Made by a program: the position numbers and the translations under genes
Part shown: piece by piece, positions 1 through 16,545 of the stretch
Position numbering within the stretch: the first letter of the stretch is position 1
How the letters are laid out: each line of letters begins with the position of its first letter
From: Sphingobium sp.
GTDB taxonomy: Bacteria; Pseudomonadota; Alphaproteobacteria; Sphingomonadales; Sphingomonadaceae
Assembly: GCA_022652485.1 (NCBI GenBank)
Contig: JALCRK010000003.1
Span: 35,798 to 99,797, forward strand
Direction of reading: 5' to 3'
DNA: 64,000 bases
The notes under the pieces: model-generated
What the model was told of the DNA's origin: nothing
What the model saw: the letters and a program-made list of their open reading frames with translations, nothing else
The model's database searches: none

Positions 1-1522
1 GCGCCACGGTATCGCCGCCGACCTCGCGCAACACTTCGGTCAACACTTCGCGGTCGCGGACAAGGCCATAAAAGGCATCATCGGCCACCCAATAATCGGC
101 CATCTTGACGCCAAGGTGAAGACCGATGGTTTCGATAAGGCCGGTTCCGCTTGCCAGTGTCTCGGCCATAACGACGCCAAGAACCTCCATGACAACCGCG
201 TCTGGCAATTCCAGCAACCGCTGGAACAGTCCGCTCACGCCGTTCCTCGGTTCATGGCCCAAAGTGACGCTTGGCTCATCGGGGTCAAAACCCAACACGC
301 CAAGCACTGCGCGGCGGCGCTCGTCGAAGCGGGCTTCGGCAACGCTGGTTTCGATGCTCTCGGTAATCGCTTCGTTTCGGCTGCGCTGATCTTGAACCCT
401 CACGCCCCATAGTGGCGAACCGCAAATCGCGTGGGCAACCATGACACGCAGCGCCACGCCGGTATTGGCGGCAAGCGCCGACCGCACCGCCGCATGGCGG
501 TGCAGGTCGATATAGCTCGTCATGGCTGCTGTGATTTCGGGGCGGCTGGCCTTGGTTGTCGCATCGGGCGCTTCGCCTTTGGCGATGCGCTTTGCTTCGC
601 GCTCGGTCAGATAGCCCTCGTGAAACGCCACCTCGCCATTATGGGCAATGGTCACATAGACCCGCCCGCCTTTGCGCTTCGGCGTGGCCGCGAACTCGTA
701 GCGATGGAAGTATTGCCCATCGGGCAAAACGACAACATCGCTCCACCCGTCCGCGATATAGGCAGCCTTGCGTTCCTCGATGGCCGCGCGCTGCGCGTCC
801 TCGAACTCGCGCAAATCCCCGAAATAGCCGTCCTTCTCGAACAGGTCTTTGACGATACGGCCATGATAGGTTTCAAGGTCGAACAGCGCGACGCTGGTTG
901 ATATGGACGCGCCGCCGAACAGCCACGCTTTCAACTGGTGGCCCTTGGGGATGGACGATTGTGGGTCGTCATACAGCGCCAGCCATGTTTTCTGCTGCGC
1001 CTTCGTCGCCAGCGTCAGATGGCGAACACTGGTCGCGTCGATCTCCTCGGCGCGGTAAAGCTGGCGGATGCGCGGCAGCAAATTGCCAAGCGCCAAGATG
1101 CGCTTGACGGTCAGTTCGGGCATCCCGAACGTCATGGAAATTTCGTCGGGCGTCCGGCCTTCCTTGACCAACCGCGTGAACGACTCCCACTGCGTCACCT
1201 CGTCGGGCGCAAGCCGCGCAAGGTTCTCGATCAATGAGGCTTCGAGGGCGGCGGCATCGTCGCCCGCCTCCATGATAGCGCACGGCAGCGGCTCGGCAAC
1301 GCCGTTCTCGTTTGCCACGGTCTGCGCGGCGAGAAAGCGACGGCTTCCCGCCACAATCTCGAATGTGGTGTCGCTGCCATTGGGCCGCACCAACAGCGGC
1401 ATGATAATGCCCCGTGCGCGGATGGATGGCAGAATGCCGCTAATGTCGGGCGGCTTCTTGCCGCTCCGCATATTGGCGGGGGAGATTGAAAGCCGGTCAA
1501 GGGCGATATGGTCAAGTTTCAT
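1..1522 (-). CDS. ParB/Srx N-terminal domain protein (ICE/plasmid-type ParB-like), partial: C-terminus is off-window
   Basis: Not in the ORF track because it runs off the left edge. A minus-strand ATG at 1522 opens a frame with no stop down to position 1. My translation MKLDHIALDRLSISPANMRSGKKPPDISGILPSIRARGIIMPLLVRPNG..FEIVAGSRRFLAAQ shows the ParB-type N-terminal motif. Confidence 0.75.
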   Translation of the reverse strand, partial: MKLDHIALDRLSISPANMRSGKKPPDISGILPSIRARGIIMPLLVRPNGSDTTFEIVAGSRRFLAAQTVANENGVAEPLPCAIMEAGDDAAALEASLIENLARLAPDEVTQWESFTRLVKEGRTPDEISMTFGMPELTVKRILALGNLLPRIRQLYRAEEIDATSVRHLTLATKAQQKTWLALYDDPQSSIPKGHQLKAWLFGGASISTSVALFDLETYHGRIVKDLFEKDGYFGDLREFEDAQRAAIEERKAAYIADGWSDVVVLPDGQYFHRYEFAATPKRKGGRVYVTIAHNGEVAFHEGYLTEREAKRIAKGEAPDATTKASRPEITAAMTSYIDLHRHAAVRSALAANTGVALRVMVAHAICGSPLWGVRVQDQRSRNEAITESIETSVAEARFDERRRAVLGVLGFDPDEPSVTLGHEPRNGVSGLFQRLLELPDAVVMEVLGVVMAETLASGTGLIETIGLHLGVKMADYWVADDAFYGLVRDREVLTEVLREVGGDTVA

Positions 1523-1634
1523 GTCACTTACTCCGTTAGGTGGCCCCATCCTCGGGGCATCTTGGGGGGCGGTGAGGATGGGGCCGGTTGTCCGCGCCGG
1601 ACTATCCAGCGCGGGGTCTGCCGCCGCCTTGGGT

Positions 1635-2027
1635 TCAAGGCGGCGGAAGGGCTGGATTCTCTTTGGCGCGGGCAACGGCTGCGGCCTCAAGCCGCGCCTC
1701 GTCCTCGGTGATGCTGCCCGCCACGCGGGCCGCATCGGCATAAATGGTCAGCGGGAAGCGCCCTTCAAAACACAGGTCGCGCTCAATGGTGAGGCCGAAC
1801 GGCAGCGATACCGCTGCAATCTCGGCAAGGCTGGCCGAACCCATTTCGGGGCAACCAAAGCCAAGATCGCAAAGTCCGAACAAAATGTCGCCGTCTTCGT
1901 CCAGTTCGGAAAACAGCCAAGTGCCCGACCCTACGGGATTGAAGAATTTGACGACCGGCACATGATCGCCACGGCTTTTGCCGTTGGCGATGAGGCGGGC
2001 GCGCTGGTCTTGGGTGAGTAACAGCAT
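1635..2027 (-). CDS. DUF2958 domain protein (ICE/plasmid backbone)
   Basis: MLLLTQDQRARLIANG..VVKFFNPVGSGTWLFSELDEDGDILFGLCDLGFGCPEMG is the characteristic DUF2958 sequence. Internal ATG at 2027 chosen within track ORF 1635-2195. Confidence 0.8.
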   Translation of the reverse strand: MLLLTQDQRARLIANGKSRGDHVPVVKFFNPVGSGTWLFSELDEDGDILFGLCDLGFGCPEMGSASLAEIAAVSLPFGLTIERDLCFEGRFPLTIYADAARVAGSITEDEARLEAAAVARAKENPALPPP

Positions 2028-2040
2028 GGGGAAAATCCTT

Positions 2041-2250
2041 TCAAAACATCTCGATCTGATTGCGGGCGTTGGTGTCGAACAAGCCATGATCGGCGGGGCG
2101 CTGCGCCTTGCGCGGCTCCAGCGGCGCATTGGCGCGCATGGCGAGACGGTCGCGGGGCGTGATTGGCGCAACGCCGTAAACAAGCGTCTGCTCACCGATG
2201 GGCGTTTGCTCGGACGCCAGCCGGTCTTTGCAGGGGAGCGTGGCGGTCAT
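2041..2250 (-). CDS. hypothetical small protein (69 aa), ICE operon
   Basis: Track ORF. ATGA overlap with the upstream ORF (2247-2250) and only 13 nt before the DUF2958 start, which suggests translational coupling. No recognisable family. Confidence 0.4.
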   Translation of the reverse strand: MTATLPCKDRLASEQTPIGEQTLVYGVAPITPRDRLAMRANAPLEPRKAQRPADHGLFDTNARNQIEMF

Positions 2251-2450
2251 GCCGCGCGCGCCAAGGTGGATTCGCTCTCCCGAACGAACGCCAACAGAAA
2301 ATCCGCTGCCTTGCTGGCTTGCGATGCTGCTTTGAAAATGGCGCGATTGTCGGCGCGCAGCACATTAAGTAATCGCGAGGTATCGATAATGTGAAGGAAC
2401 GCGGCCAGATTGGCTGATGTCTGCGGTTTCCGGCCAACATTCCTTCGCAT
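2247..2450 (-). CDS. hypothetical small helical protein (67 aa), ICE operon
   Basis: Track ORF with an ATG at 2450, 3 nt after the recombinase stop, and an ATGA overlap with the next ORF. No recognisable family. Confidence 0.35.
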   Translation of the reverse strand: MRRNVGRKPQTSANLAAFLHIIDTSRLLNVLRADNRAIFKAASQASKAADFLLAFVRESESTLARAA

Positions 2451-2453
2451 TAT

Positions 2454-3362
2454 TCAGAGCGTGTCGAGCCAGGCGAGTACGCTTGTATCGCGCTTCCAGG
2501 ATGGCTTGCCGCCGGGTGTGGTCGGAACGGCAACCTGTTCCAATGCCTTCCGTTTCGTTTCCAGATTGGCCCTCGCATAGTGGTTGGTCGTGTCGAGGCT
2601 CACATGGCCGAGCCAACTGCGGATGACCGTGACGTCGACGCCCGCCGAGATGAGGTGCACGGCGGTGGCGTGCCGGAAGGCGTGCGGCGTCACATGCTTG
2701 GCACGCAGCGTCGGCGTGGTTTCTGCCGCAGCCCTCACGTAGGCGGCAAGCTTGAACCGGACACCCGAGGCACTGAGCGGTTCGCCATAACGGTTGACGA
2801 ACAGCCTCTGGTCCGGCGCCCGTGGCTGTCGCTCGAGCAGCTTACTCAGCAGCAGGACCGTTTCCGGCCAGAGCGGGCAGATGCGTTCCTTTCGGCCCTT
2901 GCCGGTCAGGCGCACGCAGCTCGGGCTTTCGAACCGGATCGCTTCGGGGCACAGATCGAGCGCTTCCTGTATTCGTGCGCCGCTGTTGTAGAGGAACGAG
3001 AGCAGCGCATGGTCGCGCATACCCTCGATCGTAGAACGGTCGGGCTGAGCGAGGATCGCCGTCACTTCCGCCGGATCGAGGTAGCAGGGCTCCGATACCG
3101 GCGCGCGCTTGATCGGGATGTTGAGGATTTCGACGCATTGCGCGATCGATGGGGGATACTTGGTGGCCACGAAGTGGAAGAAGCTGCGGATCGCGGCAAG
3201 TCGGCAGTTGCGCGTGCCGATCGTGCCGCCGCGGTCGTGTTCGGCATGGCTCAGGAACGCGGCGACCTCGCTGGCGGTCAGATCGGCCAGCGTGATCACC
3301 GCCACCTTCTTTCCAGCACGCTGCGCGACGAAACGCGCCGAATTGGCCGAGGAAGCCGCCAA
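2454..3362 (-). CDS. tyrosine-type site-specific recombinase, probably N-terminally truncated
   Basis: Catalytic-domain motifs are present: SGARIQE, TGKGRKER, HAFRHATAVH, WLGH, HYA. Only the last helices of the SAM-like N-domain remain. The track start is a TTG with an in-frame stop at 3375-3377, directly at the junction with the helicase remnant. Confidence 0.8.
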   Translation of the reverse strand: MAASSANSARFVAQRAGKKVAVITLADLTASEVAAFLSHAEHDRGGTIGTRNCRLAAIRSFFHFVATKYPPSIAQCVEILNIPIKRAPVSEPCYLDPAEVTAILAQPDRSTIEGMRDHALLSFLYNSGARIQEALDLCPEAIRFESPSCVRLTGKGRKERICPLWPETVLLLSKLLERQPRAPDQRLFVNRYGEPLSASGVRFKLAAYVRAAAETTPTLRAKHVTPHAFRHATAVHLISAGVDVTVIRSWLGHVSLDTTNHYARANLETKRKALEQVAVPTTPGGKPSWKRDTSVLAWLDTL

Positions 3363-5094
3363 AGACCGCGCGGCCTATATACGCCCGATCGTGCTGTTTC
3401 AGGCAGAGGACAAGAACCGCGAAGTGACGGTGGAGGTGTTGCGGCATCACCTGATTGAAACGCATCACATCGACGGCAACGCCATCGCGGTGGCGACGGG
3501 CGATCAGCGGGGTCTGGACGGGATCGATTTATTCAAGCCGGATTGCCCGATTGAGTATGTCATCACGGTTGAGGCGTTGAAAGAAGGCTGGGATTGCTCC
3601 TTTGCTTATGTCTTCTGCTCCGTAGCAAATATCAAGAGTGCAACGGATGCCGAACAGCTTTTGGGCCGCGTGCTGCGTATGCCTTATGCCACGCGGCGTA
3701 AGTCGCCGCTGCTCAACAAAGCCTACGCCAATCTGGTGTCGAAGAGCTTTGCCGAAGCCGCGAATACTCTGCGTGATCGCCTCGTTGATATGGGCTTTGA
3801 GGAGCAAGAGGCCGAGGCAAATATCGAAGCGGTGCAAAGCTCGCTAGATGAAGGTTTGTGGGGTGAGCGGCGGCGTTCAAAGCCGACAGCGCGTATTTCG
3901 ATTGAGGTAACACCGGAAGTTTTAGCCACAGTGAAAGCGGTTGCTCCTGAAAAGTTGAAGATTGAAGCTGCTGAGGGCACCGTTGCTGTCGTTGAGGTGA
4001 CAGGATTTTTGCGGAAATCTGAGAAAGACCTGATCTACGCCTCTTTGCCTGAAAAAGCCGCAAACCACTTCCGCGAAGTAGTTCAACGCTTTGAGGCCGA
4101 GAACGCCCATGAAGCATCGCCGGCTGAGCTGGGGCAGGAATTTGTCGTGCCGCGACTAATGGCATCAATCCAAGGCGAACTCATTTTCGCCGACGCGGAT
4201 ATAATGGGCGAGTATTTCGAGTGGTCGCTTGCCAGTCATTCGGCGCAGCTTTCGCGAGCTGAATTCGATGTGCGCGATACTTCTGAAGCGTTCGAGATCG
4301 ACCTGGATGGCGATAGTCTGATGGTAAGGCATAGCGACCAATTCGATCAAATGATGCTAGACGTGCCAGTCGATGGTTGGACGGAAGCGGGATTGGTCAA
4401 TCTGCTCACGAAGCAAGTTCGCCAATCGGATAGGGCCATCGGCCACAGCGAAATGGTCGCTTGGCTTAGCGACGTGATCCGTCACTTGACGGGTGCACGT
4501 GCGATTCCGCTGGCAACGCTGATGCGTTGTCGATTCATTCTGGCCCGCAAATTGCGGGATAAGATTGCGGCAATTCGCGCCGAAGTCCGCAAGGGCGTTT
4601 ATCAGCGCTGCCTGTTCGCGCCGGAAGCTCAACCTCAGGTGTCATTCGACAATGGTTTCCGTTTCCATGATGGCATGTTCGCAGGCGTTCCCTGCTATCG
4701 CGGTACCAAATATCGTTTTACCCGTCATTACTTAGGTTGGGACCGCGTGCCTGCATTTGACGGCAATGAAGATGGCGAGGAATTCAAAGCCGCACAATTG
4801 CTCGACAGCATCAGCGACGTGGAATTTTGGGTTCGCAACGTCGCCAAACACGTCGATGCCTTTTGGTTTCCTCTGGCGAATGGGAGAACTTACCCCGATT
4901 TTGTCGCAAAACTGGAAGACGGACGGCTGTTGGTAGTCGAATATAAAGGCGCACATTTGGTGGCTGATTCCCTGGAGAAGCAAGCCATCGGGCAACTCTG
5001 GCAAAAATCGAGCGAGGAAAAGGGCATTTATGTATTCGCGGAAAAGGAACGTAATGGGATGAATGTGAAAGCGCAGATACTGGAAGCGCTTTAG
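3337..5094 (+). pseudogene. 5'-truncated SF2 helicase (type III restriction Res-like) with a C-terminal PD-(D/E)xK nuclease-like domain
   Basis: Only the helicase C-terminal motifs remain (VITVEALKEGWDCSFAYV; QLLGRVLRMPY) plus a C-terminal YPDF..VVEYKG. There is no DEAD/DEAH N-half and no plausible start codon. Residues before ~3337 in track ORF 3109-5094 are antisense to the recombinase gene. Confidence 0.7.
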
Positions 5095-5125
5095 AAAGGC
5101 AGCCACCAAAGCTGGAGAAAATTGA

Positions 5126-6022
5126 TCAGCGGCGGCGGCTTTTACTCGGGAACTGAGGGTTCTCCCAAACATCAAATGTATCACGGAAGCCCTCATCGAC
5201 CTCGCTTTCGTCTTCGGTCTCGTCAACGATCAGCATAGTCATTTTCCACCCGCCCGCCAGACTCAGCGCTTGCTCATTGATGGATGATGGGCGCTCAAGA
5301 CTTGCAAGCCAGACGCCTCGGTCAACTTCATCCCATTCTGCCTCGCTGTTTTGGGAACCGGAAGATAGAGAGTTGTGTGGAAGCGGCTTGCCTATCGCAG
5401 CTTCCACAAAAGGGAAGCGACTTGGCTTATAAACGCGCCTTATTATGTCATCTTGGGACAAGATGATCGCGCACATGTCATGGTGATAGGTTGAGTAATG
5501 GATTGCAGCGGCCTCTTTGCTCACATCATACCGAGCTGCCAAGGCAACAACATTTTGAAGGTCGGGCGCACCTTGAGAACGCATGTCTGCCTTAAACATG
5601 GGCAACGGCATCAGCATTCCCGCGCTAAACCTGTTTGCCTCCGATTCCATCCTCTTATAACGATCATCGCGACCCGCTTTGCGGATGCTCATATCGGCTT
5701 TTGAACATGTAAATTGGCCAGATGTCCCAGGCTTATGCGCAGCTATTAGGAAGTGTCCGAGCTCATGACCGATGGTATATCGCTGCCGCAATCGGTTCGC
5801 TGTGCCATTGACAAGGATAACCCCGTCTCGACGTTCAGGCTGCGTAATCAGTCCACCCTCAAAATTCTGTGTGGTCATCCTGTGAATGTCGGTGATGCCG
5901 ACGGCAACGGCCAGATCTTCGATCGGCACCGGAATTTGTAAGTCCGGCAATTGCCGGAGAATTTCGCTAATTACCCTTTCTGGAGAAGTGCAATCAGCAA
6001 GCTCAATCCGATCAATCTGCAT
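5126..6022 (-). CDS. ImmA/IrrE-family zinc metallopeptidase (CapP-like)
   Basis: HExxH motif IGHELGHFL followed by ESEANRFSAGMLMP (DUF955/ImmA type). Its ATG directly abuts the stop of the upstream XRE gene (TAGATG). Confidence 0.85.
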   Translation of the reverse strand: MQIDRIELADCTSPERVISEILRQLPDLQIPVPIEDLAVAVGITDIHRMTTQNFEGGLITQPERRDGVILVNGTANRLRQRYTIGHELGHFLIAAHKPGTSGQFTCSKADMSIRKAGRDDRYKRMESEANRFSAGMLMPLPMFKADMRSQGAPDLQNVVALAARYDVSKEAAAIHYSTYHHDMCAIILSQDDIIRRVYKPSRFPFVEAAIGKPLPHNSLSSGSQNSEAEWDEVDRGVWLASLERPSSINEQALSLAGGWKMTMLIVDETEDESEVDEGFRDTFDVWENPQFPSKSRRR

Positions 6023-6349
6023 CTATTGCCCTGACTCGCGCTTCTTTTTCATACCTTCGATCATCAGTTCAATAAATTGCCGGTCATTTTCATCCAAATT
6101 CTGGAGGTCGCGATACATAACCACAAGCTGCTCATCCTGAGCGTCGCTAGGATCTTCGCCCACTAAAGAAGCGATGGACACACCAAAATGCCCAGCAATA
6201 CCTTTGAGGAGTTCAATGGAAGGGTTAGCGGCAGTGCCTTTTTCAAGCTCCCAAATGTGCGCTTTGGACGCTCCAACCGCATCGGCAACAACCTGAAGCG
6301 ATTGGCCTTTAGCTGTTCGCAGCTTTTGCAACTTCGTTGCTAACGACAT
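6023..6349 (-). CDS. XRE-family helix-turn-helix transcriptional regulator (CapH-like)
   Basis: KLRTAKGQSLQVVADAVGASKAHIWELEKG is a classic Cro/C1 HTH. It is divergent from the NTase operon and co-transcribed with the ImmA peptidase. Confidence 0.85.
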   Translation of the reverse strand: MSLATKLQKLRTAKGQSLQVVADAVGASKAHIWELEKGTAANPSIELLKGIAGHFGVSIASLVGEDPSDAQDEQLVVMYRDLQNLDENDRQFIELMIEGMKKKRESGQ

Positions 6350-6386
6350 TATTCACGCTCCATTTCCGCTTTACCACAGTTCGCGC

Positions 6387-6415
6387 CCTATAGGAATCGC
6401 AAATCGTTCGGTCAA
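6387..6415 (-). promoter_or_regulatory. candidate sigma70 promoter for the XRE-ImmA genes (TTGACC-N17-TATAGG)
   Basis: The reverse complement of 6410-6415 is TTGACC, followed by a 17-nt spacer; the reverse complement of 6387-6392 is TATAGG. The -35 lies inside the left arm of the 10-bp inverted repeat. Confidence 0.5.
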
Positions 6416-6446
6416 TCGAACAAATTTGTGAGGCCTATTGACCGAA
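6407..6446. promoter_or_regulatory. candidate operator: perfect 10-bp inverted repeat TTCGGTCAAT-N20-ATTGACCGAA enclosing the palindrome ACAAATTTGT (6420-6429)
   Basis: Read directly from the sequence. Each arm contains a TTGACC -35 hexamer for one of the two divergent promoters. Confidence 0.55.
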
Positions 6447-6466
6447 GCTCTCGTTCAGTGTATCTT
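6438..6466 (+). promoter_or_regulatory. candidate sigma70 promoter for the DUF2188-NTase-E2-patatin operon (TTGACC-N17-TATCTT)
   Basis: TTGACC at 6438-6443, a 17-nt spacer, TATCTT at 6461-6466. The palindrome TCTTAC-N6-GTAAGA (6463-6480) overlaps the -10 and predicted start. The first ATG is at 6501, with AGGA at 6491-6494. Confidence 0.5.
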
Positions 6467-6500
6467 ACGTTATTGTAAGACAAAATCGAAAGGATGATCT

Positions 6501-6722
6501 ATGGGCCGCAATCAACACATTGTGCCACACAAGGCCGGCTGGGCCGTAAAATCAGCGGGCGGTGAGCGAGCTTCATCCGTTCACACAACCCAGCTGGCCG
6601 CGATTGAGCGCGGTCGTGAAACAGCACGAAGCCAAAAGTCAGAACTTTTGGTTCATGGACGCAACGGCCAGATCCGGCAGCGCGATAGCTATGGGAACGA
6701 TGATTTCCCACCTCAAGGATAG
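6501..6722 (+). CDS. DUF2188 domain protein
   Basis: MGRNQHIVPHKAGWAVKSAGGERASSVHTTQLAAIERGRETARSQKSELLVHGRNGQIRQRDSYGNDDFPPQG matches the DUF2188 pattern (HVVP..GWAVK...RAS...TQ.EAI...A......EL.IHGRDG.IR...SYG.DP.PP.G). Confidence 0.75.
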   Translation: MGRNQHIVPHKAGWAVKSAGGERASSVHTTQLAAIERGRETARSQKSELLVHGRNGQIRQRDSYGNDDFPPQG

Positions 6723-6733
6723 GTGAACTTAAA

Positions 6734-7984
6734 ATGACGATCTATGATCCAATCCGACCAAATCGCAATTACTTGCCGATGCCAAGTCCGGGTGATGCAA
6801 TGCTAATGGACATCGCCCGGCGGGTCCAGATTTCACCTACTAAGCAGGGTGAGGCGGAACAACACTTCCAAGCATTATGTGCTTATGTAGATCGGGTTGG
6901 CAGCCCGCTCGAAAGCATGGTCATTGCATGTTATCCCGGTGGCAGCTTTGCAACCGGAACCGCAATTGCATCAAGTGTTTCCAAAGATCAACATGACGTC
7001 GATGTTGTGATGGAACTCGATGTTGATTCTAACAGTGATCCAAAGCAGACGCTAGGATTGCTATATGAGGCAATCAACAGCGTGCCGGGTTCTAGATATT
7101 TCGGTCGGGTAAAGCTCAACTCCCGATGCGTAACAGTCCACTATGACGATGGTGTCCATGTGGATTTGATGCCGCTCGCGAGACTCGTAGCGACGCCGGA
7201 AAAGGCAGGAAACCTTTTTCATTCAAAGCCACAATCTGGCGAAAGCTACCACAAGCAGGTCAACCCTTGGGGTTTCGCCGAGCATTTTAATGGCAAGACT
7301 GCCTATGATCCTGTGTTCGCCGCAATGTTTGAAGCCCGATCAATGGCGGACAGTGGCGTCCTTGCAAAGGCAGACGTGGAGCCACTGCCAGCGCAGGTTC
7401 CTCTTACTGAAAAGTCAGCCAGAGTCGTCGCTTTACAGCTTATCAAGCGGAACCGCGATGTCCGTTTTCGGAATCGGTCGAAGCGCAAACCACCTTCGAT
7501 TGTGCTCTCGGCTATGGCTTTAGAAGTCGCGCCTTTGGGGGCTGGACTGCTTGAGGAAGTTGTTTCCATTTCGTTGCACATTGCACGTAGGCTCCAAGAA
7601 AAGTCGACGCACAATGTTTGCATCGAAGTTAGAAACCCGTCGTTTGTTCCTGACATTTTTACGGACAGATGGCCCCAAAACCTTGGGGATCAGAATGAAT
7701 ATGTCCGCGATTTGGAATATCTCGTTCGCCAATTGGCCAGACTGAGAGATGCCAACATTTCGATCACCGAATCCAAAACAATTCTTGATGATCTGTTCGG
7801 TGAAACGCCTGCGAAATATGCGATCAACGAGATCATGGAACGCAGTCGGCACGAAATGGAAAGGGGCACAATGAGGTTCGGACCTACGGGAAGAGTTCAC
7901 GCCAGCGCTGCGGCAGCGATTGCGACAAACTGCACCACGGCGCGTGCTAGCACAAATATGGGCGGCGGATGGCTCCCGGACTAA
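6734..7984 (+). CDS. CD-NTase-like (cGAS/DncV-like, SMODS-type) nucleotidyltransferase
   Basis: Pol-beta NTase signature: YPGGSFATGTAI (G69-G-S71), DVDVVMEL (D88, D90), VHVDLMP (D144). Ala/Thr-rich C-terminal tail ending NMGGGWLPD. First enzymatic gene of an operon with E2-like and patatin genes. Confidence 0.7.
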   Translation: MTIYDPIRPNRNYLPMPSPGDAMLMDIARRVQISPTKQGEAEQHFQALCAYVDRVGSPLESMVIACYPGGSFATGTAIASSVSKDQHDVDVVMELDVDSNSDPKQTLGLLYEAINSVPGSRYFGRVKLNSRCVTVHYDDGVHVDLMPLARLVATPEKAGNLFHSKPQSGESYHKQVNPWGFAEHFNGKTAYDPVFAAMFEARSMADSGVLAKADVEPLPAQVPLTEKSARVVALQLIKRNRDVRFRNRSKRKPPSIVLSAMALEVAPLGAGLLEEVVSISLHIARRLQEKSTHNVCIEVRNPSFVPDIFTDRWPQNLGDQNEYVRDLEYLVRQLARLRDANISITESKTILDDLFGETPAKYAINEIMERSRHEMERGTMRFGPTGRVHASAAAAIATNCTTARASTNMGGGWLPD

Positions 7985-8469
7985 TCAGCATTGATCACCA
8001 GATTGGTGCCATGACGGAGCGATGGCCCGCCTTTGAAGTAGTGGCCAAAAATGATCGTTGCGCAGTCTGGGAAGGTAATCTCGATCCAGTCAGCAGACGA
8101 TATCGTGTGCGTGTCAGATATGAGGTGCCTGTGGCAATCGAGAACTTTTCACTACTCAATGTGCAGCCCCGGGTTCAGATATTGTCTCCAGTTCTTGAGC
8201 GCCATCCTGAGCATGACGAGGGGCCAATCCCGCATGTATATATAAACAGCAAAGAGCAATCATTGCCTTATCTGTGTCTTTTCGATCCTTTCAATGGGGA
8301 GTGGACTCCGTCAGATTTGTTGGCAGAAACAACCGTGCCTTGGACTTCGCGCTATCTCTATTTTTATGAAGGCTGGTTGTTGACCGGTAAATGGTCAGGT
8401 GGAGGCAGGCACCCGACACAGGAGGAACTGGATGGAAGTCGACAGCCAAAAGCCATCGCGGAGATCTGA
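7969..8469 (+). CDS. E2 (UBC)-like protein, stand-alone (type II-short CBASS E2-like)
   Basis: The core GPIPHVYINSKEQSLPYLCLFDPFNGEWTPSDL parallels the UBC HPN..(G)..C..(L)..W.P layout, with a candidate catalytic Cys103 (codon 8275-8277). 16-nt overlap with the NTase gene. An alternative start is at 8011. Confidence 0.6.
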   Translation: MAPGLISIDHQIGAMTERWPAFEVVAKNDRCAVWEGNLDPVSRRYRVRVRYEVPVAIENFSLLNVQPRVQILSPVLERHPEHDEGPIPHVYINSKEQSLPYLCLFDPFNGEWTPSDLLAETTVPWTSRYLYFYEGWLLTGKWSGGGRHPTQEELDGSRQPKAIAEI

Positions 8470-9490
8470 CGGGACACTCAACGAGCGGCGCCACCAATTG
8501 CCTTGGCCAAAGGATAGGAGATTCCGCATCCTCTCAATTGATGGCGGCGGCATTCGTGGGATATTTCCTGCCGCAATTTTAGCAGAATTTGAGCGGAAGT
8601 TTCTCAGCGGTGACTCTGTTGGTGATTATTTCGACCTAATTGCCGGGACATCGACAGGAGGCATAATTGCTCTTGGTCTGTCGATAGGGTTACCTGCATC
8701 CAAAATTCTTGATTTGTACTTTAGTAATGGAGCAGAGATATTTCCCACAGCCGCGCCTCCGTTCAAGAGGATAAAGCGATTTTGGGCGAAATTTCGATCC
8801 TTAAATTATTACCAGTATAGCCGAGAACCGCTCGAACGTGAGTTACGTCAAATTTTTGGAACACTTACCATCGGTGACGCACAACGCCGCCTTTGTATTC
8901 CTTCATTTGATGGTTTCACCGAAGTAAACGTCTTCAAAACACCCCATCATCCCGATTTTAGGCTTGATTGGCGTGAGGAAATGGTGACGGTCGCACTAGC
9001 AACCTCTGCGGCTCCAACGTATTTTTCGGTCTACAAGGACGGTCAGCGACGTTTCGCAGATGGCGGCGTTTGGGCGAATAATCCTGTGATGGTAGCACTG
9101 GTAGACGCACTCACTTGCAATATGATCGAACGCGATCAGATCGATATTCTCTCGATCGGTTGTGGCGATGCTGAGATTAAAATGTCCGACGCTCAAATTC
9201 TGCGTGGTGGGTTGTGGCACTGGCGAGAAATTGTCTCATCGGCAATGCACCTCGCCAGCCAAAACGCGCTTGGCCAGGCCGGGCTGCTCATTGGACGTGA
9301 TCGCCTAATTCGCTTGAATACGCCTCCCTTCGCTGGGGGTGCCATTGGGTTGGACGACGTGAAACGTGCGAACACTGAGCTACCAAAAATCGCAAAGATT
9401 TTGGCAGAGCAGAATGGACCATTAGTGGCCGCTAGGTTTTTCTCTAGTAAGGCAGAACCATTCTCTCACTTTCATGGCTCCAAAGTTTGA
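8432..9490 (+). CDS. patatin-like phospholipase (CapV-like effector)
   Basis: ILSIDGGGIRG (oxyanion hole), GTSTGG (GxSxG nucleophile), ADGGVWANNP (catalytic Asp). ATG at 8432 preceded by AGGAGGA. Track ORF 8399-9490 trimmed accordingly. Confidence 0.9.
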   Translation: MEVDSQKPSRRSDGTLNERRHQLPWPKDRRFRILSIDGGGIRGIFPAAILAEFERKFLSGDSVGDYFDLIAGTSTGGIIALGLSIGLPASKILDLYFSNGAEIFPTAAPPFKRIKRFWAKFRSLNYYQYSREPLERELRQIFGTLTIGDAQRRLCIPSFDGFTEVNVFKTPHHPDFRLDWREEMVTVALATSAAPTYFSVYKDGQRRFADGGVWANNPVMVALVDALTCNMIERDQIDILSIGCGDAEIKMSDAQILRGGLWHWREIVSSAMHLASQNALGQAGLLIGRDRLIRLNTPPFAGGAIGLDDVKRANTELPKIAKILAEQNGPLVAARFFSSKAEPFSHFHGSKV

Positions 9491-10599
9491 TTGTCAGCTT
9501 CAAGCGCAAGCCGGTAACGTGCGTAGCGCCTCTCGCCGGTGCGAATTAACGCACCCTTCTCGACAAGATCGGCCAAATCGCGGGTCGCGGTAGCAAGGCT
9601 GGCATCTGTGATCGTCCGGTAATTCCCGGCGCTCAACCCACCCGCGAATCCATCCGGCCCTTCACGGAACAAGCGAAGCAGCGCCTTTTCCTGCCGTTCG
9701 TTGATTTGCCCGCGCAAGCGATCAAGCAGCCGAGTCTTGTCGATCAGGAAGCGAATGCGAGTGATCGTCCGTGCCTGCGCCTCGATGACAATATCGGCAA
9801 ACCATGCCAGCCAGGCATTGATGTCGTTGCTCTGGCTCCCGAGCTGGAGGGCGGCGTAATAGGCTTTGCGGTGACGATTGATCGTTTCCGCGAGCGCCGT
9901 CAGCGTCGGGGCCGCAAGGTTTTGCGCCAACGCTTTTTCGGCAATCGCGCGCCCGATACGGCCATTGCCATCCTCGAAGGGATGGATGCTCTCAAACCAC
10001 AGGTGCGAGATAGCGGCTCGGGTGATTGCCGGAAGCGGTTTCGCTGATTCCGGTGCGCTGTCGTTAAACCATGCGATGAAACGGGACATTTCCGCTGGAA
10101 CGGTATCGGACGGCGGTGCTTCGAAATGCACACGCGGCGCATGAAGCGCGCCCGACACAATCTGCATCGCATCTTGATGGCGACGGTAACGCCCGACATC
10201 GGTAATATCGCGCCGCCCGTTCATCACCATCGCGTGCCAAGCGAACAGGGTCTGGTCGTCAAGCGGCGCAGCATGGTTGCGATACACATCGGCCATCAAT
10301 TCAGCGGCCCCGGCCTCTGCCGCACTGGCGCGGCGCTGGTCGGTGGCAAAGCCCAGATGTCGCGCGAGTGACGACTGGACGCTGGCGCGATCGAGGATTT
10401 CTCCCTCGATGGCGGAGCTATCGACCACTTCTTGTGAAATCAGTTCGATGGTCAGGCCATCGCGGGCATCAGCGTCAAGGTGGTGCAGCGCGCCAATGAC
10501 AACGCCCGAACCTTTCAGGAATTGCTCTTCGGACGCGCGGATGCGATCCGCGTCGAAGCGGAAATCAGGCCAATCGGGAAGCTGCCAATTCCAGCGCAT
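9472..10599 (-). CDS. Fic family protein (AMPylase-type) with a DUF4172-like N-terminus
   Basis: Fic motif HPFEDGNGRIGR. N-terminus MRWNWQLPDWPDFRFD. C-terminal winged-helix-like region. The 3' end overlaps the patatin gene 3' end by 19 bp (convergent). Confidence 0.9.
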   Translation of the reverse strand: MRWNWQLPDWPDFRFDADRIRASEEQFLKGSGVVIGALHHLDADARDGLTIELISQEVVDSSAIEGEILDRASVQSSLARHLGFATDQRRASAAEAGAAELMADVYRNHAAPLDDQTLFAWHAMVMNGRRDITDVGRYRRHQDAMQIVSGALHAPRVHFEAPPSDTVPAEMSRFIAWFNDSAPESAKPLPAITRAAISHLWFESIHPFEDGNGRIGRAIAEKALAQNLAAPTLTALAETINRHRKAYYAALQLGSQSNDINAWLAWFADIVIEAQARTITRIRFLIDKTRLLDRLRGQINERQEKALLRLFREGPDGFAGGLSAGNYRTITDASLATATRDLADLVEKGALIRTGERRYARYRLALEADNQTLEP

Positions 10600-10972
10600 G
10601 ATGGATAAGATGCCTTTCTATCAATCACGATATAGCATGAATATGATTGATAAAGCGATAGCCAATCAATCATAACAGTCAGATTATCGCTTCGCGGAGT
10701 TTGCATATGGGAAAGCCCCCCCATTGCACCACTTTAAGTTCGCCAGCGGCGAAGGGACGCAATGCGGGGAAGACGCGGGCAAAGGGGTGCTTGAGGCTCG
10801 GCGCACCTTTTTCCTTCACCCGCTTGGCCGGTGTCCCGATCAAGAGCGCCAGCGGCGCATCGGAAAACCGGCGCAACCGCCAGACTCCCAAGAGCATCAG
10901 CGATGCGGAGTCAGCGTTTGAAGTGGGAGGTTCCTGATGCCCCCTACGATACGGGCGGGACGGTCATGTCTG

Positions 10973-12268
10973 CTACCGTCTCGCGGTTCTTGGCATTCGG
11001 GAGCGGCCGGAACGATCTCGTGTCGCGGCGGCTTTGGCGGCCCTTGCCGCAGCTTCGCTGTCGTCGCCGGGCTCTCGGGCCAATTCCCAACCGGTCATGC
11101 CCATGAGAACGCGATCTGCATGTTTCACAGTGTTCACATGGCCGTAATGCTGCTCGATCATCTTGACCGACGTTCCCATTTGTTCGGCAAGAATGTAAAC
11201 ATCGACGCCTTCTGAAAGGCGGAAGGTCGCATAGGTATGGCGGAAGCAATAGGTCGAACGGGAAATGCCGCTCGGCCCGATCCGCAAGTCCGATTCCGTC
11301 AACAGGTCTTGCACCGTGTCGCTGTAGAGATATTTGGCGGGCTTGCCGTTGATAATTGTGAAAACAGGATCGTCCGACTTGGTGGCCTTGGACAGCTCGC
11401 GAACGCGGTCGAGATAATCGCCGACACTCTTGGGAGCAACCAGTCTGCGGGACTTGCCTTTACCCTGCACAGATAAGACGACAATCTCCCTGCCGTCACG
11501 ATCCTTCGCCGCCATGATGTCTCGCCAGCGCAAGTTTCTCGCTTCTGGTGGACGCATCCCCGTGTTGCACATGATGAGCATGAAATTGTAGCAGATGGTT
11601 CGATACCAGATGCCCTGCGGCGATGTCGCCGCCTTGATCCATTTGCGGCCAAAGCTGTGCAGCTTACGATATTCCTCGGTCGTGAACTCATCGCGCCGCA
11701 TGGTTTTGAGCTTCGGCCTGCCCTCGAAGCGATGGCTCGCCGGAACATAGCGTTTGCTGATAGCGAAGCTCATCACCGCGTTGAAAGCACCCATTTCAAC
11801 GCCAATGGTTGCATCACTGACGATTGCCCGCGTCCGGCCCTTGCCGTTCTCCCGTCGCCATGTAGGATAATTTGACCAGCGGTCTTGACCAATTAGGTGA
11901 ATTTGCGTGCTTCCAATATAATCGTCCAAGACGCGGCGACAACGATTGGCGACGTTCTTGACGCTGTCGGCAGCCACCTCGCCCAACTTGGCGCGCCGCT
12001 GCTGCACAGCGATATATTCCTCTGCAACCTGGCGAAAAGGGCGGTTAAACACCGGCACATCATGCTTGATTCGAAAGCGAATGTCAGCATCGAGGTCGAA
12101 CGCTTGGTCATGCGCTGTCTGCCTGTCCGCCGTCCCTAACGCGATGGTCTTGTAGCGATCCTCCTTCGGGAGCTTGATGCGGCAATAGAAGTTGCGGTGC
12201 GCCACATCACCACGCCTGAAAATAATCAGGCCGGATTTAAGCTTCTCCTTGTCGGTGATAAACGCCAT
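10973..12268 (-). CDS. tyrosine-type site-specific integrase (island integrase)
   Basis: TGMRPPEARNLRWRDI, QGKGKSRRLVA, FRHTYATFRL, MGTSVKMIEQHYGHV (R..K..HxxR..H..Y). ATG at 12268 chosen (MAFITDKEKL); upstream alternatives at 12328 and 12376. Confidence 0.85.
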   Translation of the reverse strand: MAFITDKEKLKSGLIIFRRGDVAHRNFYCRIKLPKEDRYKTIALGTADRQTAHDQAFDLDADIRFRIKHDVPVFNRPFRQVAEEYIAVQQRRAKLGEVAADSVKNVANRCRRVLDDYIGSTQIHLIGQDRWSNYPTWRRENGKGRTRAIVSDATIGVEMGAFNAVMSFAISKRYVPASHRFEGRPKLKTMRRDEFTTEEYRKLHSFGRKWIKAATSPQGIWYRTICYNFMLIMCNTGMRPPEARNLRWRDIMAAKDRDGREIVVLSVQGKGKSRRLVAPKSVGDYLDRVRELSKATKSDDPVFTIINGKPAKYLYSDTVQDLLTESDLRIGPSGISRSTYCFRHTYATFRLSEGVDVYILAEQMGTSVKMIEQHYGHVNTVKHADRVLMGMTGWELAREPGDDSEAAARAAKAAATRDRSGRSRMPRTARR

Positions 12269-12436
12269 CGCGATGCTCCACTGTGCAGAATCTGTGTAGA
12301 TTAGCGTCGCAGGGGCGCGGAAATCCATAGCTGTGCAGGTGCTGTGTAGCTCTTTATAGCTTATTTTATTAGGCAATTCCAGTTATTTACTGTAATCCTG
12401 TCGTCCCGACCATTTTATATTTTCATATCAGATGAT

Positions 12437-12454
12437 TATCCGCTTTTGCGGATA
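12437..12454. repeat. perfect hairpin TATCCGC-TTTT-GCGGATA in the AT-rich island/core boundary region
   Basis: Read directly. It lies between the integrase start and the rplS terminator. Confidence 0.5.
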
Positions 12455-12519
12455 GGGAACGAAGGCTCGGGACACACCTCGTCAGGCACCAAAGCGATGC
12501 CCTAGATCCATACTCAACA

Positions 12520-12543
12520 TCATTCCCAAGTACGCGGGAATGA
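12520..12543. repeat. REP-like hairpin TCATTCCC-N8-GGGAATGA
   Basis: Read directly. Similar architecture to the hairpins at 30405-30469. Confidence 0.4.
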
Positions 12544-12564
12544 CGAGCGTTTGGCGAAGTTGAC

Positions 12565-12602
12565 CAGAAAGCAAAACAGGCGCACCCGAGCGGGCGCGCC
12601 TG
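12565..12602 (-). terminator. rho-independent terminator of rplS
   Basis: On the minus strand, CAGGCGCGCCCG..CGGGTGCGCCTG is followed by TTTTGCTTTC, ~30 nt after the rplS stop. Confidence 0.7.
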
Positions 12603-12632
12603 CTTGTAAAGCCTGAAGCTGTGTAAGGGCGA

Positions 12633-13013
12633 TCAGCCCTCGTTGCGGGTGTCGCGACGCTCGGCGATGCGGGCGCGCTTGCCGGTGCGGCCACGCAGAT
12701 AATAGAGCTTCGCACGACGCACGACGCCCTTGCGGACGACGGTGATGCTGTCGATGTTCGGCGAATAGAGCGGGAAGACGCGCTCAACGCCCTCGCCGAA
12801 GCTCATCTTGCGCACGGTGAAGTTCGACCCCATGCCCTTGTTCGAGCGGGCGATGCAGACGCCTTCATAGTTCTGAATACGGGTGCGTTCGCCTTCAACC
12901 ACCTTCACGCCGACGCGCAGCGTGTCGCCCGCGCGGAAATCCGGGATGGCATTGGCGGCGGCGGAGGTCGCCTTCGCGATTTCCTCGGCCTCGATCTGTT
13001 GAATGAGGTTCAT
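12633..13013 (-). CDS. rplS: 50S ribosomal protein L19
   Basis: [68 protein letters not shown] is a clear L19 sequence. Confidence 0.97.
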
Positions 13014-13055
13014 ATGACCTTCTTCCTTCGTCTCGTGTCGCGCGCCAGAGGCAGG

Positions 13056-14311: not shown

Positions 14312-14314
14312 GGA

Positions 14315-14776: not shown

Positions 14777-14821
14777 AAATTCTAACCTTACCTTTCTTGA
14801 AATTTGAAAATATTAAATAAA

Positions 14822-16300: not shown

Positions 16301-16545
16301 CTCACAACGCGCGGAAATCCGCGGAAAAGCTTATACCCCAAAACGACAAGCGCGCCGGTGGGCGAAACCTCGCCGACCAGCGTCGATCCGTGGACCTTAT
16401 GGGCAATATGCCCAAGCCAGGGATGTCATCAGGGCGTCAACCGAACCCGAAGGCCCGCTCGACTGTCGCCGCCCATAAGCGAAAGTGCCGCCTTACGCAA
16501 GCGAAGCCGTGGACTTTCGCGCTATTCACCCCTACATGCGCGGCG

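What the first reader, a model, noticed from the sequence alone, without database searches (positions are those of the whole stretch)
6501..6733. DUF2188 gene as the leader cistron of the NTase-E2-patatin operon
Seen: a 73-aa DUF2188 protein is the first ORF downstream of the predicted + promoter (-10 at 6461-6466, ATG 6501, AGGA RBS). It ends 11 nt before the NTase ATG, with no terminator-like structure in between, so it is almost certainly co-transcribed.
Established: DUF2188 is a widespread small domain of unknown function. I know of no described role for it in CBASS or any other defence system.
Inference: it may be a new accessory component, for example a sensor/adaptor, a chaperone-like inhibitor of the NTase, or a regulator of the E2 step. 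Alternatively it is only a hitch-hiking gene.
Basis: partly seen in the sequence, partly recalled or inferred. Interest (0 to 1): 0.65.

Follow-up and report, generated by a model that had tools for sequence, protein, structure and literature searches.

The report
Portable small gene heading a CBASS operon
The 73-aa DUF2188 gene really is the first cistron of a CapH/CapP-controlled CBASS anti-phage operon, but it is an optional, mobile small gene (an untested defence candidate, PADLOC PDC-S16) that travels with damage-sensing repressor switches in front of many different immune systems, not a dedicated CBASS part.

Summary
Observation confirmed. ORF 6501-6722(+) is a true DUF2188 gene (Pfam E=8e-24). 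It lies 11 nt upstream of the CD-NTase and behind a promoter and operator that are conserved across genera.

Interpretation only partly supported. In 75 non-redundant loci with close relatives (56-72% identity, many phyla), the dominant neighbour is an upstream M78-peptidase/HTH regulator (about 48/75; odds ratio 47, p=2e-30). CBASS follows in only 13/75. Other cargo includes TIR, ubiquitin-like systems, DUF4160/DUF2442, or nothing.

The closest CBASS relatives (CD-NTase 75-78% identical) keep the same CapP-CapH switch and promoter but lack DUF2188, a clean ~235-nt indel. Where present, the gene is under strong purifying selection (dN/dS 0.02-0.14).

The link to defence and to CapH/CapP was already published (Burroughs & Aravind 2020, as cited by Lau; Lau et al. 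2022). PADLOC lists the family as PDC-S16, which is untested.

Best reading: a facultative, cargo-independent output of damage-responsive switches that acts on a conserved target, not on the CD-NTase or E2. Its biochemistry is unknown, and neither fold nor profile searches gave a lead. The natural plus/minus operon pairs make it directly testable.

The parts
5126..6022 (-). capP: M78/IrrE-type Zn-metallopeptidase, the partner that cleaves CapH
   Evidence: Pfam Peptidase_M78 E=7.6e-15; PADLOC capP E=2.2e-52
6023..6349 (-). capH: Xre-type HTH repressor, divergent from the DUF2188-CBASS operon
   Evidence: Pfam HTH_31/HTH_3; PADLOC capH E=5e-25
6405..6421 (.). Conserved palindromic element CGTTCGGTCAATCGAAC upstream of the -35: candidate CapH operator
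   Evidence: Conserved in DUF2188-plus and DUF2188-minus operons (A3; A2). Same position as the 22-bp CapH site of Lau et al.. Binding not tested.
6407..6446 (.). Perfect 10-nt inverted repeat TTCGGTCAAT/ATTGACCGAA (arms 6407-6416 and 6437-6446); the right arm overlaps the -35
   Evidence: the repeat finder. The right arm beyond TTGAC is specific to this window.
6438..6466 (+). Promoter: -35 TTGACC (6438-6443), 17-nt spacer holding a second CGTTC half-site (6451-6455), -10 TATCTT (6461-6466)
   Evidence: Promoter scan. TTGAC is invariant and TATCTTACG is conserved across genera.
6491..6494 (+). Shine-Dalgarno AGGA for DUF2188, 6 nt before the ATG
   Evidence: Sequence
6501..6722 (+). DUF2188 / PADLOC PDC-S16 gene, 73 aa, pI 10.4, with the C-terminal tail S-Y-G-x-D-x-x-P-P-x-G
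   Evidence: Pfam E=8e-24; PDC-S16 E=7.6e-35; phrog_3220 E=2e-26; AF2 model pLDDT 86.8; dN/dS 0.02-0.14; tail motif
6721..6726 (+). Shine-Dalgarno AGGTGA for the CD-NTase, overlapping the DUF2188 stop codon
   Evidence: Sequence
6734..7984 (+). CD-NTase (SMODS/DncV-like cyclase)
   Evidence: Pfam SMODS; PADLOC Cyclase PDLC00800 E=1.4e-143
7969..8469 (+). E2-only Cap2-like protein (type II 'short' CBASS)
   Evidence: PADLOC E2 E=5e-55. The orthologue in L126 carries PF26395 E2-CBASS.
8432..9490 (+). Patatin-like phospholipase effector (CapV). The ORF opens at 8399; the likely start is ATG 8432, as in the 93%-identical operon.
   Evidence: Pfam Patatin E=5e-28; PADLOC phospholipase effector E=3e-116; 352-aa orthologue

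Best explanation
Shown: 6501-6722 encodes a real, strongly constrained 73-aa DUF2188 protein. It is the first cistron of the transcription unit DUF2188/CD-NTase/E2/patatin. That unit is driven by the promoter shared with the divergent capH-capP pair.

Inferred from the published CapH/CapP mechanism: CapH represses this promoter until ssDNA or DNA damage activates CapP to cleave it. DUF2188 would therefore be made together with, and just ahead of, the CBASS proteins.

Shown by comparative genomics: the gene is not a CBASS part. It is a facultative, horizontally mobile module (PADLOC PDC-S16). Its most constant neighbour is a stress-responsive repressor or antitoxin switch, and the downstream cargo is interchangeable or absent. 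The switch types seen are:
- split CapH/CapP;
- fused RmrA-like HTH-M78;
- sigma-like protein plus CapP;
- WYL/BrxR.

Inferred mechanism (about 0.35 on its own): it is a cargo-independent output of the switch. In this reading it is a small basic protein that acts on something common to all hosts and contexts (nucleic acid, the translation apparatus or a phage component). It would add an independent layer, or a threshold, to whatever immune cargo follows, and would not bind the CD-NTase or E2.
For: - Operon and promoter. The operator, -35, -10 and early leader are conserved between operons with and without the gene. The conserved palindrome sits where Lau et al. mapped the CapH site.
- Switch linkage: M78-family ORFs are 44/217 at positions -3..-1 against 6/1121 elsewhere in the same loci (OR 47, p=2e-30). 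The regulator classes were identified by Pfam and PADLOC.
- Interchangeable cargo.
- Sole regulated gene: about 17 loci have no same-strand ORF of 80 aa or more downstream. BrxR<->DUF2188 occurs with only tiny ORFs after it.
- Facultative: the closest CBASS relatives lack it, as a clean ~235-nt indel. The prophage X-Y(-DUF2188) operon likewise occurs with and without it.
- Functional protein: dN/dS 0.02-0.14.
- Portability: 56-72% identity across many phyla, 457 plasmid records, 27 phage records and 119 viral contigs.
- Stand-alone on Klebsiella plasmids.
- Near-identical DUF2188 proteins beside very different partners: median normalised similarity 0.70, against 0.08-0.25 for neighbours (with a selection-bias caveat).
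Against: - No biochemical activity is known or predictable. Foldseek against the PDB gave nothing significant. Profile searches gave no PDB or cross-family hit.
- A 73-aa protein with no catalytic motif has not been shown to act as an autonomous effector, and all PDC candidates are untested.
- Adjacency to regulators would equally fit a role in tuning the switch.
- Fusions to CopG/RHH and HTH-like segments look more like a regulator or antitoxin module than an effector.
- My gene calls in the loci are crude ORF calls, and the 80 loci are the ones most similar to the query, not a random sample.
- CapH binding and CapP control of this particular promoter are inferred, not shown.
Confidence: 0.5

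Rival explanations
1. Switch modulator. DUF2188 acts back on the damage-sensing switch or its signal. For example, it could bind ssDNA or the operator, or engage the M78 peptidase through its invariant C-terminal tail. That would lock in or terminate derepression, much as Cro or Xis do as first genes of ImmR/ImmA- or CI-controlled operons.
For: Its strongest association is with M78/HTH regulators. It also follows WYL/BrxR regulators, which like CapP are reported to sense ssDNA (titles and abstracts). It lies in early operons next to prophage immunity switches. It is fused to DNA-binding modules in some proteins. It is basic, with pI 10.4. The invariant tail lies outside the Pfam domain.
Against: Regulators of unrelated families and very low mutual similarity (median 0.08) accompany nearly identical DUF2188 proteins, which argues against a specific protein-protein fit. 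In loci where it is the only regulated gene, a pure feedback factor would leave the switch without an output. It occurs on plasmids with no adjacent regulator. CapH/CapP switches work without it, both in Lau's E. coli system and in the minus clade.
Confidence: 0.22
2. CBASS-specific accessory: a sensor/adaptor, an inhibitor or chaperone of the CD-NTase, or a regulator of the E2 step.
For: The operonic junction with CBASS genes is tight in the window and in about 20 other loci. The positional association with CD-NTases is significant. All linked CBASS contain E2 or E1/E2, and the protein ends in Gly.
Against: Only 13/75 loci carry CBASS. The same protein precedes unrelated systems or nothing. 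The nearest CBASS relatives lack it. The type II bias is what is expected, because about 76% of CapH/CapP-linked CBASS are type II. The PPxG tail is equally present in contexts without E2.
Confidence: 0.07
3. Antitoxin-like buffer. DUF2188 would be a minimal HicB-type neutralising domain that damps leaky toxicity of whatever effector follows, or of the PIN-like partner of RmrA, until a threshold is passed.
For: The literature suggests similarity of DUF2188 to the HicB N-terminal domain. The model topology beta-beta-beta-alpha-beta-beta is compatible. Fusion to a CopG antitoxin-type RHH domain exists. The gene frequently neighbours TA-like modules: RmrA+PIN-like, HigB, Panacea and RES.
Against: Neither HicB nor 5JN6 was recovered here by sequence, profile or Foldseek. 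No HicA-like toxin is adjacent. One highly conserved protein is unlikely to neutralise effectors as different as patatin, TIR, HNH and PIN.
Confidence: 0.1
4. Selfish or neutral passenger. The gene merely exploits insertion-tolerant sites in defence loci ('embedding') and contributes nothing to the host operon.
For: It is facultative, mobile and embedded in many systems.
Against: It is under strong purifying selection inside CBASS operons. It has a very specific position and orientation behind regulated promoters. There are no transposition or recombination signatures at the indel boundaries.
Confidence: 0.06

Closest known systems
PADLOC PDC-S16 (single-gene 'phage defence candidate', Payne et al. 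2024 preprint)
   Same: Full-length match to both PDC-S16 models (E=7.6e-35 and 1.4e-33). It is embedded between the parts of a known defence system, which is the criterion by which PDCs were defined.
   Different: PDCs were derived from genes embedded in BREX, DISARM and type I R-M loci; here the host system is CBASS. PDC-S16 is untested, so the label says nothing about mechanism.
CapH/CapP-associated 'DUF2188 + nucleotide cyclase' and 'DUF2188 + hypothetical protein' operons (Lau et al. 2022, Fig. 6F)
   Same: Divergent capP-capH, then a DUF2188 gene in the regulated operon. I recovered the Extensimonas-type X-Y-DUF2188 arrangement in about 27 viral contigs and in prophages.
   Different: Lau et al. 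treated DUF2188 as the signature of separate, non-CBASS operons. Their CBASS table does not mention it. Here it heads a bona fide type II-short CBASS.
CapH/CapP-regulated CBASS (Lau et al. 2022)
   Same: Same gene order and orientation. A conserved element upstream of the -35 sits where CapH binds. 'Type II short + phospholipase' is the commonest class in their table.
   Different: There is an extra leader cistron between the promoter and the CD-NTase. The closest relatives without it are otherwise collinear.
Pseudomonas aeruginosa BWHPSA011 type II-A CBASS (Huiting et al.)
   Same: A DUF2188 gene is drawn directly adjacent to the CBASS operon. In my census DUF2188 directly precedes capV-cdnA-type operons in L044, L051, L066 and L069.
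   Different: That work did not study the gene. The four-gene complementation was done in a strain that probably still had it, so it is uninformative here.
HicB antitoxin N-terminal domain / RPA3313 (PDB 5JN6)
   Same: A three-stranded sheet followed by a helix. Similarity is claimed in the literature for another DUF2188 protein.
   Different: Not recovered here by phmmer, a profile HMM or Foldseek. There is no HicA partner and no DNA-binding C-terminal domain.
Cro/Xis-type first genes of repressor-controlled operons (lambda cI-cro; ICEBs1 immR-immA/xis); analogy only, from general knowledge
   Same: A small basic protein encoded as the first gene transcribed divergently from an HTH repressor that is inactivated by proteolysis.
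   Different: The fold is not an HTH or winged helix. DNA binding is untested. In some prophages it is the third gene, or is co-oriented with the repressor.

Membership tests
Pfam DUF2188 (PF09954) | Match to the family HMM above the gathering threshold | tested here: met
   E=8.3e-24, 84 bits against a cut-off of 22; model positions 1-62 of 62
PADLOC PDC-S16 | Full-length match to the PDC-S16 HMMs | tested here: met
   PDLC04942 E=7.6e-35 and PDLC04941 E=1.4e-33; residues 1-73 against model positions 1-75
PADLOC PDC-S16 | Embedded within, or next to, known defence systems | tested here: met
   It lies between capH/capP and the CBASS core genes. Neighbours in other loci are CBASS, TIR, Bub-like, AbiLi, RmrA and others.
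PADLOC PDC-S16 | Confers phage defence | not testable with these tools
   The authors state that all 145 PDCs are untested
CBASS ancillary (Cap) protein | Consistent co-occurrence with CD-NTase operons of a given type | tested here: not met
   13/75 loci have CBASS cargo. It is absent from the closest CBASS relatives L082-L086 and L106, and from L088 and L114.
CBASS ancillary (Cap) protein | Required for, or modulates, CD-NTase signalling | not testable with these tools
   Needs genetics or biochemistry. Huiting's complementation is uninformative.
CapH/CapP-regulated immune operon | Divergent HTH repressor plus M78 peptidase sharing the promoter region with the regulated operon | tested here: met
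   capH 6023-6349(-) and capP 5126-6022(-), with a 151-nt intergenic region
CapH/CapP-regulated immune operon | Conserved repressor-binding element upstream of the -35 | tested here: met
   CGTTCGGTCAATCGAAC (6405-6421) is conserved across loci. Its position agrees with Lau et al.. Binding itself is not tested.
CapH/CapP-regulated immune operon | ssDNA-stimulated cleavage of CapH by CapP derepresses the operon | not testable with these tools
   Inferred from Lau et al.
HicB-like antitoxin | Detectable sequence or structural similarity to the HicB N-terminal domain | tested here: not met
   No PDB hit by phmmer or profile at E<=10. No HicB among the Foldseek hits; best E=0.3. No weak Pfam cross-hit.
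HicB-like antitoxin | Adjacent HicA-type toxin gene | tested here: not met
   No such gene in the window operon or in the recurrent neighbour clusters

The most novel reading that the evidence does not exclude
DUF2188/PDC-S16 is a universal, cargo-independent 'first-response' module of ssDNA/damage-sensing immune switches (CapH/CapP, RmrA-like, WYL/BrxR, prophage ImmR/ImmA-like). It would be a tiny protein that, once released by repressor inactivation, either sets the activation threshold of the switch or locks it, or by itself arrests a conserved host or phage process. This would be a regulatory or effector layer shared by CBASS, TIR systems, ubiquitin-like (Bub) systems, BREX/DISARM and temperate phages that has so far been overlooked.
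Probability: 0.25. Interest if true: 0.7.

Novelty: new member of a known kind. Interest (0 to 1): 0.42.

Why it matters
DUF2188/PDC-S16 is one of the most widespread small genes embedded in bacterial immune loci: at least 6,798 representative clusters, plus plasmids and prophages. Yet no function has ever been tested.

This window, together with its natural DUF2188-minus relatives, offers a clean experimental handle. The two kinds of operon share the same switch, promoter and CBASS, and differ by a ~235-nt indel. Knowing what the protein does would clarify how damage-inducible immune operons are tuned. It would also show whether a single portable module serves many unrelated defence systems.

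For annotation, it warns against counting this gene as a CBASS component. It also shows that CapH/CapP-type regulators should be looked for whenever PDC-S16 is found.

Tried and rejected
1. **HicB / RPA3313 (5JN6) relationship.** phmmer and a 28-sequence profile against PDB sequences gave no hit at E<=10. Foldseek of a confident model gave no significant PDB hit (best E=0.3, Cas1 N-terminal regions, TM<=0.38). Pfam at E<=10 gave no cross-family hit. Not confirmed.
2. **E2-specific link.** Every linked CBASS is type II and the protein ends in Gly. But about 76% of CapH/CapP-linked CBASS are type II anyway (308 of about 405), and the tail occurs equally without E2. Rejected.
3. **The minus-clade leader as a remnant of the DUF2188 3' end (evidence for deletion).** The local alignment score was reached by about 25% of shuffles. 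Rejected; the direction of the indel is unresolved.
4. **Mantel-type co-evolution test of DUF2188 against M78, patatin and CD-NTase.** The correlations are driven by whole-locus relatedness and a small n, and the loci were selected on DUF2188 similarity. Not discriminating.
5. **Huiting et al. complementation as a test of dispensability.** The chromosomal DUF2188 probably remained in the deletion strain. Inconclusive.
6. **Identifying partners X (415 aa) and Y (318 aa) of the dedicated X-Y-DUF2188 operon.** No PDB relatives. X has no Pfam domain or informative name, and Y shows no Pfam hit in the gene tables.
7. **Papers not held.** The Burroughs & Aravind 2020 and RPA3313 papers could not be read. 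What I say about them rests on citations by others or on memory.
Full report
**1. The observation**

The window holds an ATG-initiated 73-codon ORF at 6501-6722 on the + strand. It matches Pfam DUF2188 over the whole model (E=8.3e-24).

- AGGA lies 6 nt upstream of the ATG.
- A TTGACC-17-TATCTT promoter-like site lies at 6438-6466.
- The stop codon is 11 nt from the CD-NTase ATG, and the CD-NTase Shine-Dalgarno (AGGTGA, 6721-6726) overlaps that stop.
- No terminator-like or further promoter-like site lies between 6467 and 7265 on the + strand.

The promoter scan alone is not above chance. However, the same hexamers are conserved in the homologous control regions of other genera. The downstream genes are a CD-NTase (PADLOC cyclase E=1e-143), an E2-only Cap2-like protein and a patatin effector. 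This makes a type II 'short' CBASS.

**2.

The divergent genes at 6023-6349(-) and 5126-6022(-) are capH (E=5e-25) and capP (E=2e-52). This is the HTH-repressor/M78-peptidase switch of Lau et al. In their system CapH binds a conserved element just upstream of the -35 and is cleaved by ssDNA-activated CapP.

The 151-nt intergenic region contains the palindrome CGTTCGGTCAATCGAAC (6405-6421) in exactly that position. It also has a second CGTTC half-site between the -35 and -10, and a perfect 10-nt inverted repeat whose right arm overlaps the -35.

The DUF2188 protein itself matches PADLOC PDC-S16 over its full length (E=7.6e-35), and phrog_3220, a phage family of unknown function.

**3. Census starting from DUF2188**

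A genome scan found at least 573 relatives. The best 80 loci are 56-72% identical and come from Alpha-, Beta- and Gammaproteobacteria, Bacteroidota, Chloroflexota, Acidobacteriota, Cyanobacteria, Gemmatimonadota and even Gracilibacteria. I called ORFs, clustered all neighbours and annotated the clusters.

The dominant neighbour is a CapP-family M78 peptidase gene lying divergently upstream. By clustering alone it is present in 42 of 75 non-redundant loci. Counting weaker or differently oriented cases raises this to about 48 of 75.

As an internal control, M78-family ORFs are 44/217 at positions -3..-1 but only 6/1121 elsewhere in the same loci (OR 47, p=2e-30).

The regulators come in several architectures:

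| Class | Architecture |
|---|---|
| a | Split CapH + CapP |
| b | Fused HTH-M78 (PADLOC RmrA, E=1e-45) followed by a PIN-like gene |
| c | HTH + short M78 + SbcB-like exonuclease |
| d | Sigma-like protein + unknown gene + CapP (E=2.5e-61) |
| e | HTH + short M78 |

Lau et al. list the same sigma-associated and fused variants. Other loci have a WYL/BrxR regulator, a plain Xre HTH, HigB+HTH or an MqsA-HTH/Panacea antitoxin in the same divergent position.

**4. Cargo**

The genes downstream on the same strand are very diverse:
- CBASS in 13/75 loci: patatin/DncV-like/Cap2, SAVED-HNH, and SMODS/E2-E1-JAB/DUF6602
- TIR proteins (5 loci)
- DUF4160 + DUF2442-HTH
- Multiubiquitin/E2/JAB-E1/BubE
- HAD (PDC-S34) + Mrr-like
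- Abi_2, a pPIWI-associated nuclease, and others

About 17 loci have no same-strand ORF of 80 aa or more within 200 nt. Some have only an 86-aa ORF (phrog_23950) or other tiny ORFs.

The association with CD-NTases is nevertheless far from random: 12/149 at +1..+3 against 2/1189 elsewhere (OR 52, p=2e-10). But CBASS is one cargo among many.

**5. Reverse census starting from the CD-NTase**

A metagenome scan gave 42 loci.

| Group | Loci | CapP-CapH | DUF2188 |
|---|---|---|---|
| CD-NTase 100% (same sequence as the window) | L081 | capH seen (contig ends before capP) | present |
| CD-NTase 75-78%, CapH 82-83% (closest relatives) | L082-L086, L106 | present | absent |
| CD-NTase about 60-65% | L089-L094, L118 (and L001) | present | present (67-73% identical) |
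| CD-NTase 63-73% | L088, L114 | present | absent |
| More distant CBASS with CapH/CapP | L110, L116 | present | absent |
| No CapH/CapP, at least 1 kb of upstream sequence | 15 loci | absent | absent |

Within this CBASS clade, DUF2188 never occurs without CapH/CapP.

Alignment A3 shows that plus and minus operons share the operator, -35, -10 and the first ~25 nt of leader. DUF2188 with its RBS is a clean ~235-nt indel in front of the CD-NTase start codon. I could not establish the direction of the indel, because an apparent remnant in the minus leader is not significant.

In these loci, which were chosen without reference to DUF2188, its identity to the window protein (67-73%) equals that of CapH (69-72%) and exceeds that of CapP, the CD-NTase, E2 and patatin (59-68%). 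Within the plus clade, dN/dS is 0.02-0.14 at dS 0.1-1.2. The gene is facultative but clearly functional.

**6. Shuffling**

The window protein's nearest relatives outside its own operon lineage sit in unrelated settings:
- 77% identical: behind an AbiLi-like ATPase, in front of HAD and Mrr-like genes.
- 75% identical: behind capH/capP-like genes, in front of a Bub-type ubiquitin-like operon.
- 73% identical: behind BrxR.

The family is also found on 457 plasmids, including 341 Klebsiella plasmids where it stands alone near a DUF2384-RES pair. It occurs in the immunity region of Streptococcus prophages and in 119 IMG/VR contigs.

In about 27 of the 80 viral loci examined it is the third gene of an operon X(415 aa)-Y(318 aa)-DUF2188. 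This operon is transcribed divergently from an M78-HTH pair in a serine-recombinase prophage, and is followed by an excisionase-like HTH and replication genes. X has no Pfam domain. A diverged X-Y module has no DUF2188 gene called. So it is not always the leader, and it is facultative there too.

**7. The protein**

AlphaFold2 with the family alignment gives a confident model (pLDDT 86.8). The topology is beta(5-10)-beta(13-18)-beta(24-28)-alpha(31-45)-beta(48-52)-beta(58-63), followed by a less ordered tail.

Invariant residues include G13, G20, Q31, R39, G53, G56, I58, R59, G65, D67, P70 and P71; W14 and H52 are nearly invariant.

The tail S-Y-G-x-D-x-x-P-P-x-G lies beyond the Pfam domain. 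It forms the extreme C-terminus in 37/40 close relatives, and at least 61/150 representatives end in exactly PPxG. The protein is basic, with pI 10.4.

Searches for relatives of known function found nothing:
- Foldseek found no significant PDB match. Its one clear viral match is a 210-aa protein with 39% identity.
- Sequence and profile searches found no PDB relative.
- Pfam at a permissive threshold gave no cross-family hit.

The HicB/5JN6 relationship proposed in the literature for another DUF2188 protein is therefore not confirmed for this one.

Informative architectures elsewhere in the family are tandem double and triple repeats, CopG/RHH+DUF2188, an HTH-like segment+DUF2188, and KTSC+DUF2188. 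The last is mirrored by an adjacent free-standing KTSC gene.

**8. Mechanism**

*Shown.* The gene heads the CBASS transcription unit behind a conserved, operator-bearing promoter shared with capH-capP. It is a constrained protein. Its positional partner across genomes is a repressor/antitoxin-type switch, and its cargo is interchangeable or absent. It can be gained or lost without other change to the operon.

*Inferred from Lau et al.* Expression follows CapP-mediated CapH cleavage on DNA damage or ssDNA.

*Inferred, and my commitment.* It is a cargo-independent output of such switches and acts on a conserved target. The reasons are:
- It is the only regulated gene in many loci.
- It occurs alone on plasmids.
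- It stays 60-75% identical while regulators and cargo change completely.

I put this at about 0.35. The alternatives are a modulator of the switch or its ssDNA signal (0.2-0.25), an antitoxin-like buffer (0.1), a CBASS-specific accessory (0.07) and a passenger (0.06). The apparent link to E2-containing CBASS is explained by the ~76% type II background among CapH/CapP-linked CBASS.

**9. What is known, and novelty**

- Lau et al. [quoted passage not shown]
- Huiting et al. drew a DUF2188 gene beside the Pa011 CBASS.
- A 2025 Thoeris preprint calls a DUF2188 protein a putative effector.
- Payne et al. introduced the PDC candidates and state that all 145 are untested.
- No later CapH/CapP paper in the library mentions the domain.

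The window is therefore a new member of a known kind: a CapH/CapP-regulated type II-short CBASS that carries PDC-S16 as its leader cistron.

This analysis adds four things: the quantitative picture (switch-linked, cargo-agnostic, facultative); the clean plus/minus indel in otherwise collinear operons; the conserved C-terminal tail; and the prophage X-Y-DUF2188 context.

**10. Caveats**

- Gene calls in the fetched loci are simple ORF calls in often GC-rich DNA.
- The 80 genomic loci are those most similar to the query.
- Related loci are not phylogenetically independent, although near-duplicates were removed.
- No binding, cleavage, transcription or phenotype was or could be tested here.

Noticed in passing
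window 3109-5094 (+) and 2454-3362 (-): The 661-aa ORF matches only model positions 308-890 of an 898-position type III restriction enzyme model (PADLOC REase_III, E=5e-105). Its 5' part overlaps a tyrosine-recombinase gene on the opposite strand. It looks like a res gene truncated by insertion of an integrase-bearing element.
   Followed up: partly
window 9472-10599 (-): A Fic/DOC + DUF4172 protein matches PADLOC SoFic (E=6e-45). It is convergent with the patatin gene and overlaps its 3' end by 19 nt, giving a second defence-type gene in the same island.
   Followed up: no
window 10973-12376 (-) and 12633-14311 (-): A second phage-type integrase lies directly next to the housekeeping genes rplS-trmD-rimM. 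No tRNA gene was found in 1-20000. The CBASS/SoFic/REase segment therefore appears to be an integrase-bounded island that is not inserted at a tRNA. Island ends and att repeats were not mapped.
   Followed up: partly
window 7940-7984: The CD-NTase ends in ...NMGGGWLPD, so it does not end in Gly. From general knowledge, type II CBASS conjugation uses a C-terminal Gly, so the last four residues may need to be processed. Not examined further.
   Followed up: no
L081 (Ga0073902_10052529) and L117 (Ga0138256_10299085): Two JGI metagenome contigs are 100% identical at protein level to parts of the window operon, so the source organism or element is present in those samples.
   Followed up: no
L008 10280-10540, L010 10279-10539, L020 8500-8763, L031 10278-10538: A conserved 86-87-aa ORF (52-91% identical between these four loci) directly follows DUF2188 in loci with no other cargo; L043 carries a weak relative. 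It matches phrog_23950 (E=7e-29, unknown function) and has no Pfam hit.
   Followed up: partly
L183 2591-5219; L220-L223 4001-6509: A prophage early operon X(415-417 aa, no Pfam)-Y(318 aa)-DUF2188 is divergent from an M78-HTH pair. It sits between a serine-recombinase/DUF2924 module and excisionase-like and replication genes. X has 114 homologous clusters, all unnamed.
   Followed up: partly
P0134; L215 2168-2621 and L216 323-776: DUF2188 is fused to a KTSC domain in one protein and directly followed by a free-standing KTSC gene in other loci. This is a fusion-plus-adjacency link between two domains of unknown function.
   Followed up: partly
about 20 loci, e.g. L033 8276-9860, L066 5316-6940: A fused HTH-M78 protein (PADLOC RmrA, E=1e-45) plus a 168-173-aa PIN-like protein (weak PDC-S70 match) form a conserved pair divergent from DUF2188. 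This is a possible three-gene Rosmer-like module.
   Followed up: partly
L005, L020, L043, L056 (upstream of DUF2188): A clear CapP (E=2.5e-61 in L020) is paired not with CapH but with a sigma-70 region-4-like protein and a 138-148-aa unknown protein. This matches the 'Sigma-70 present' class in Lau's Table S1.
   Followed up: partly
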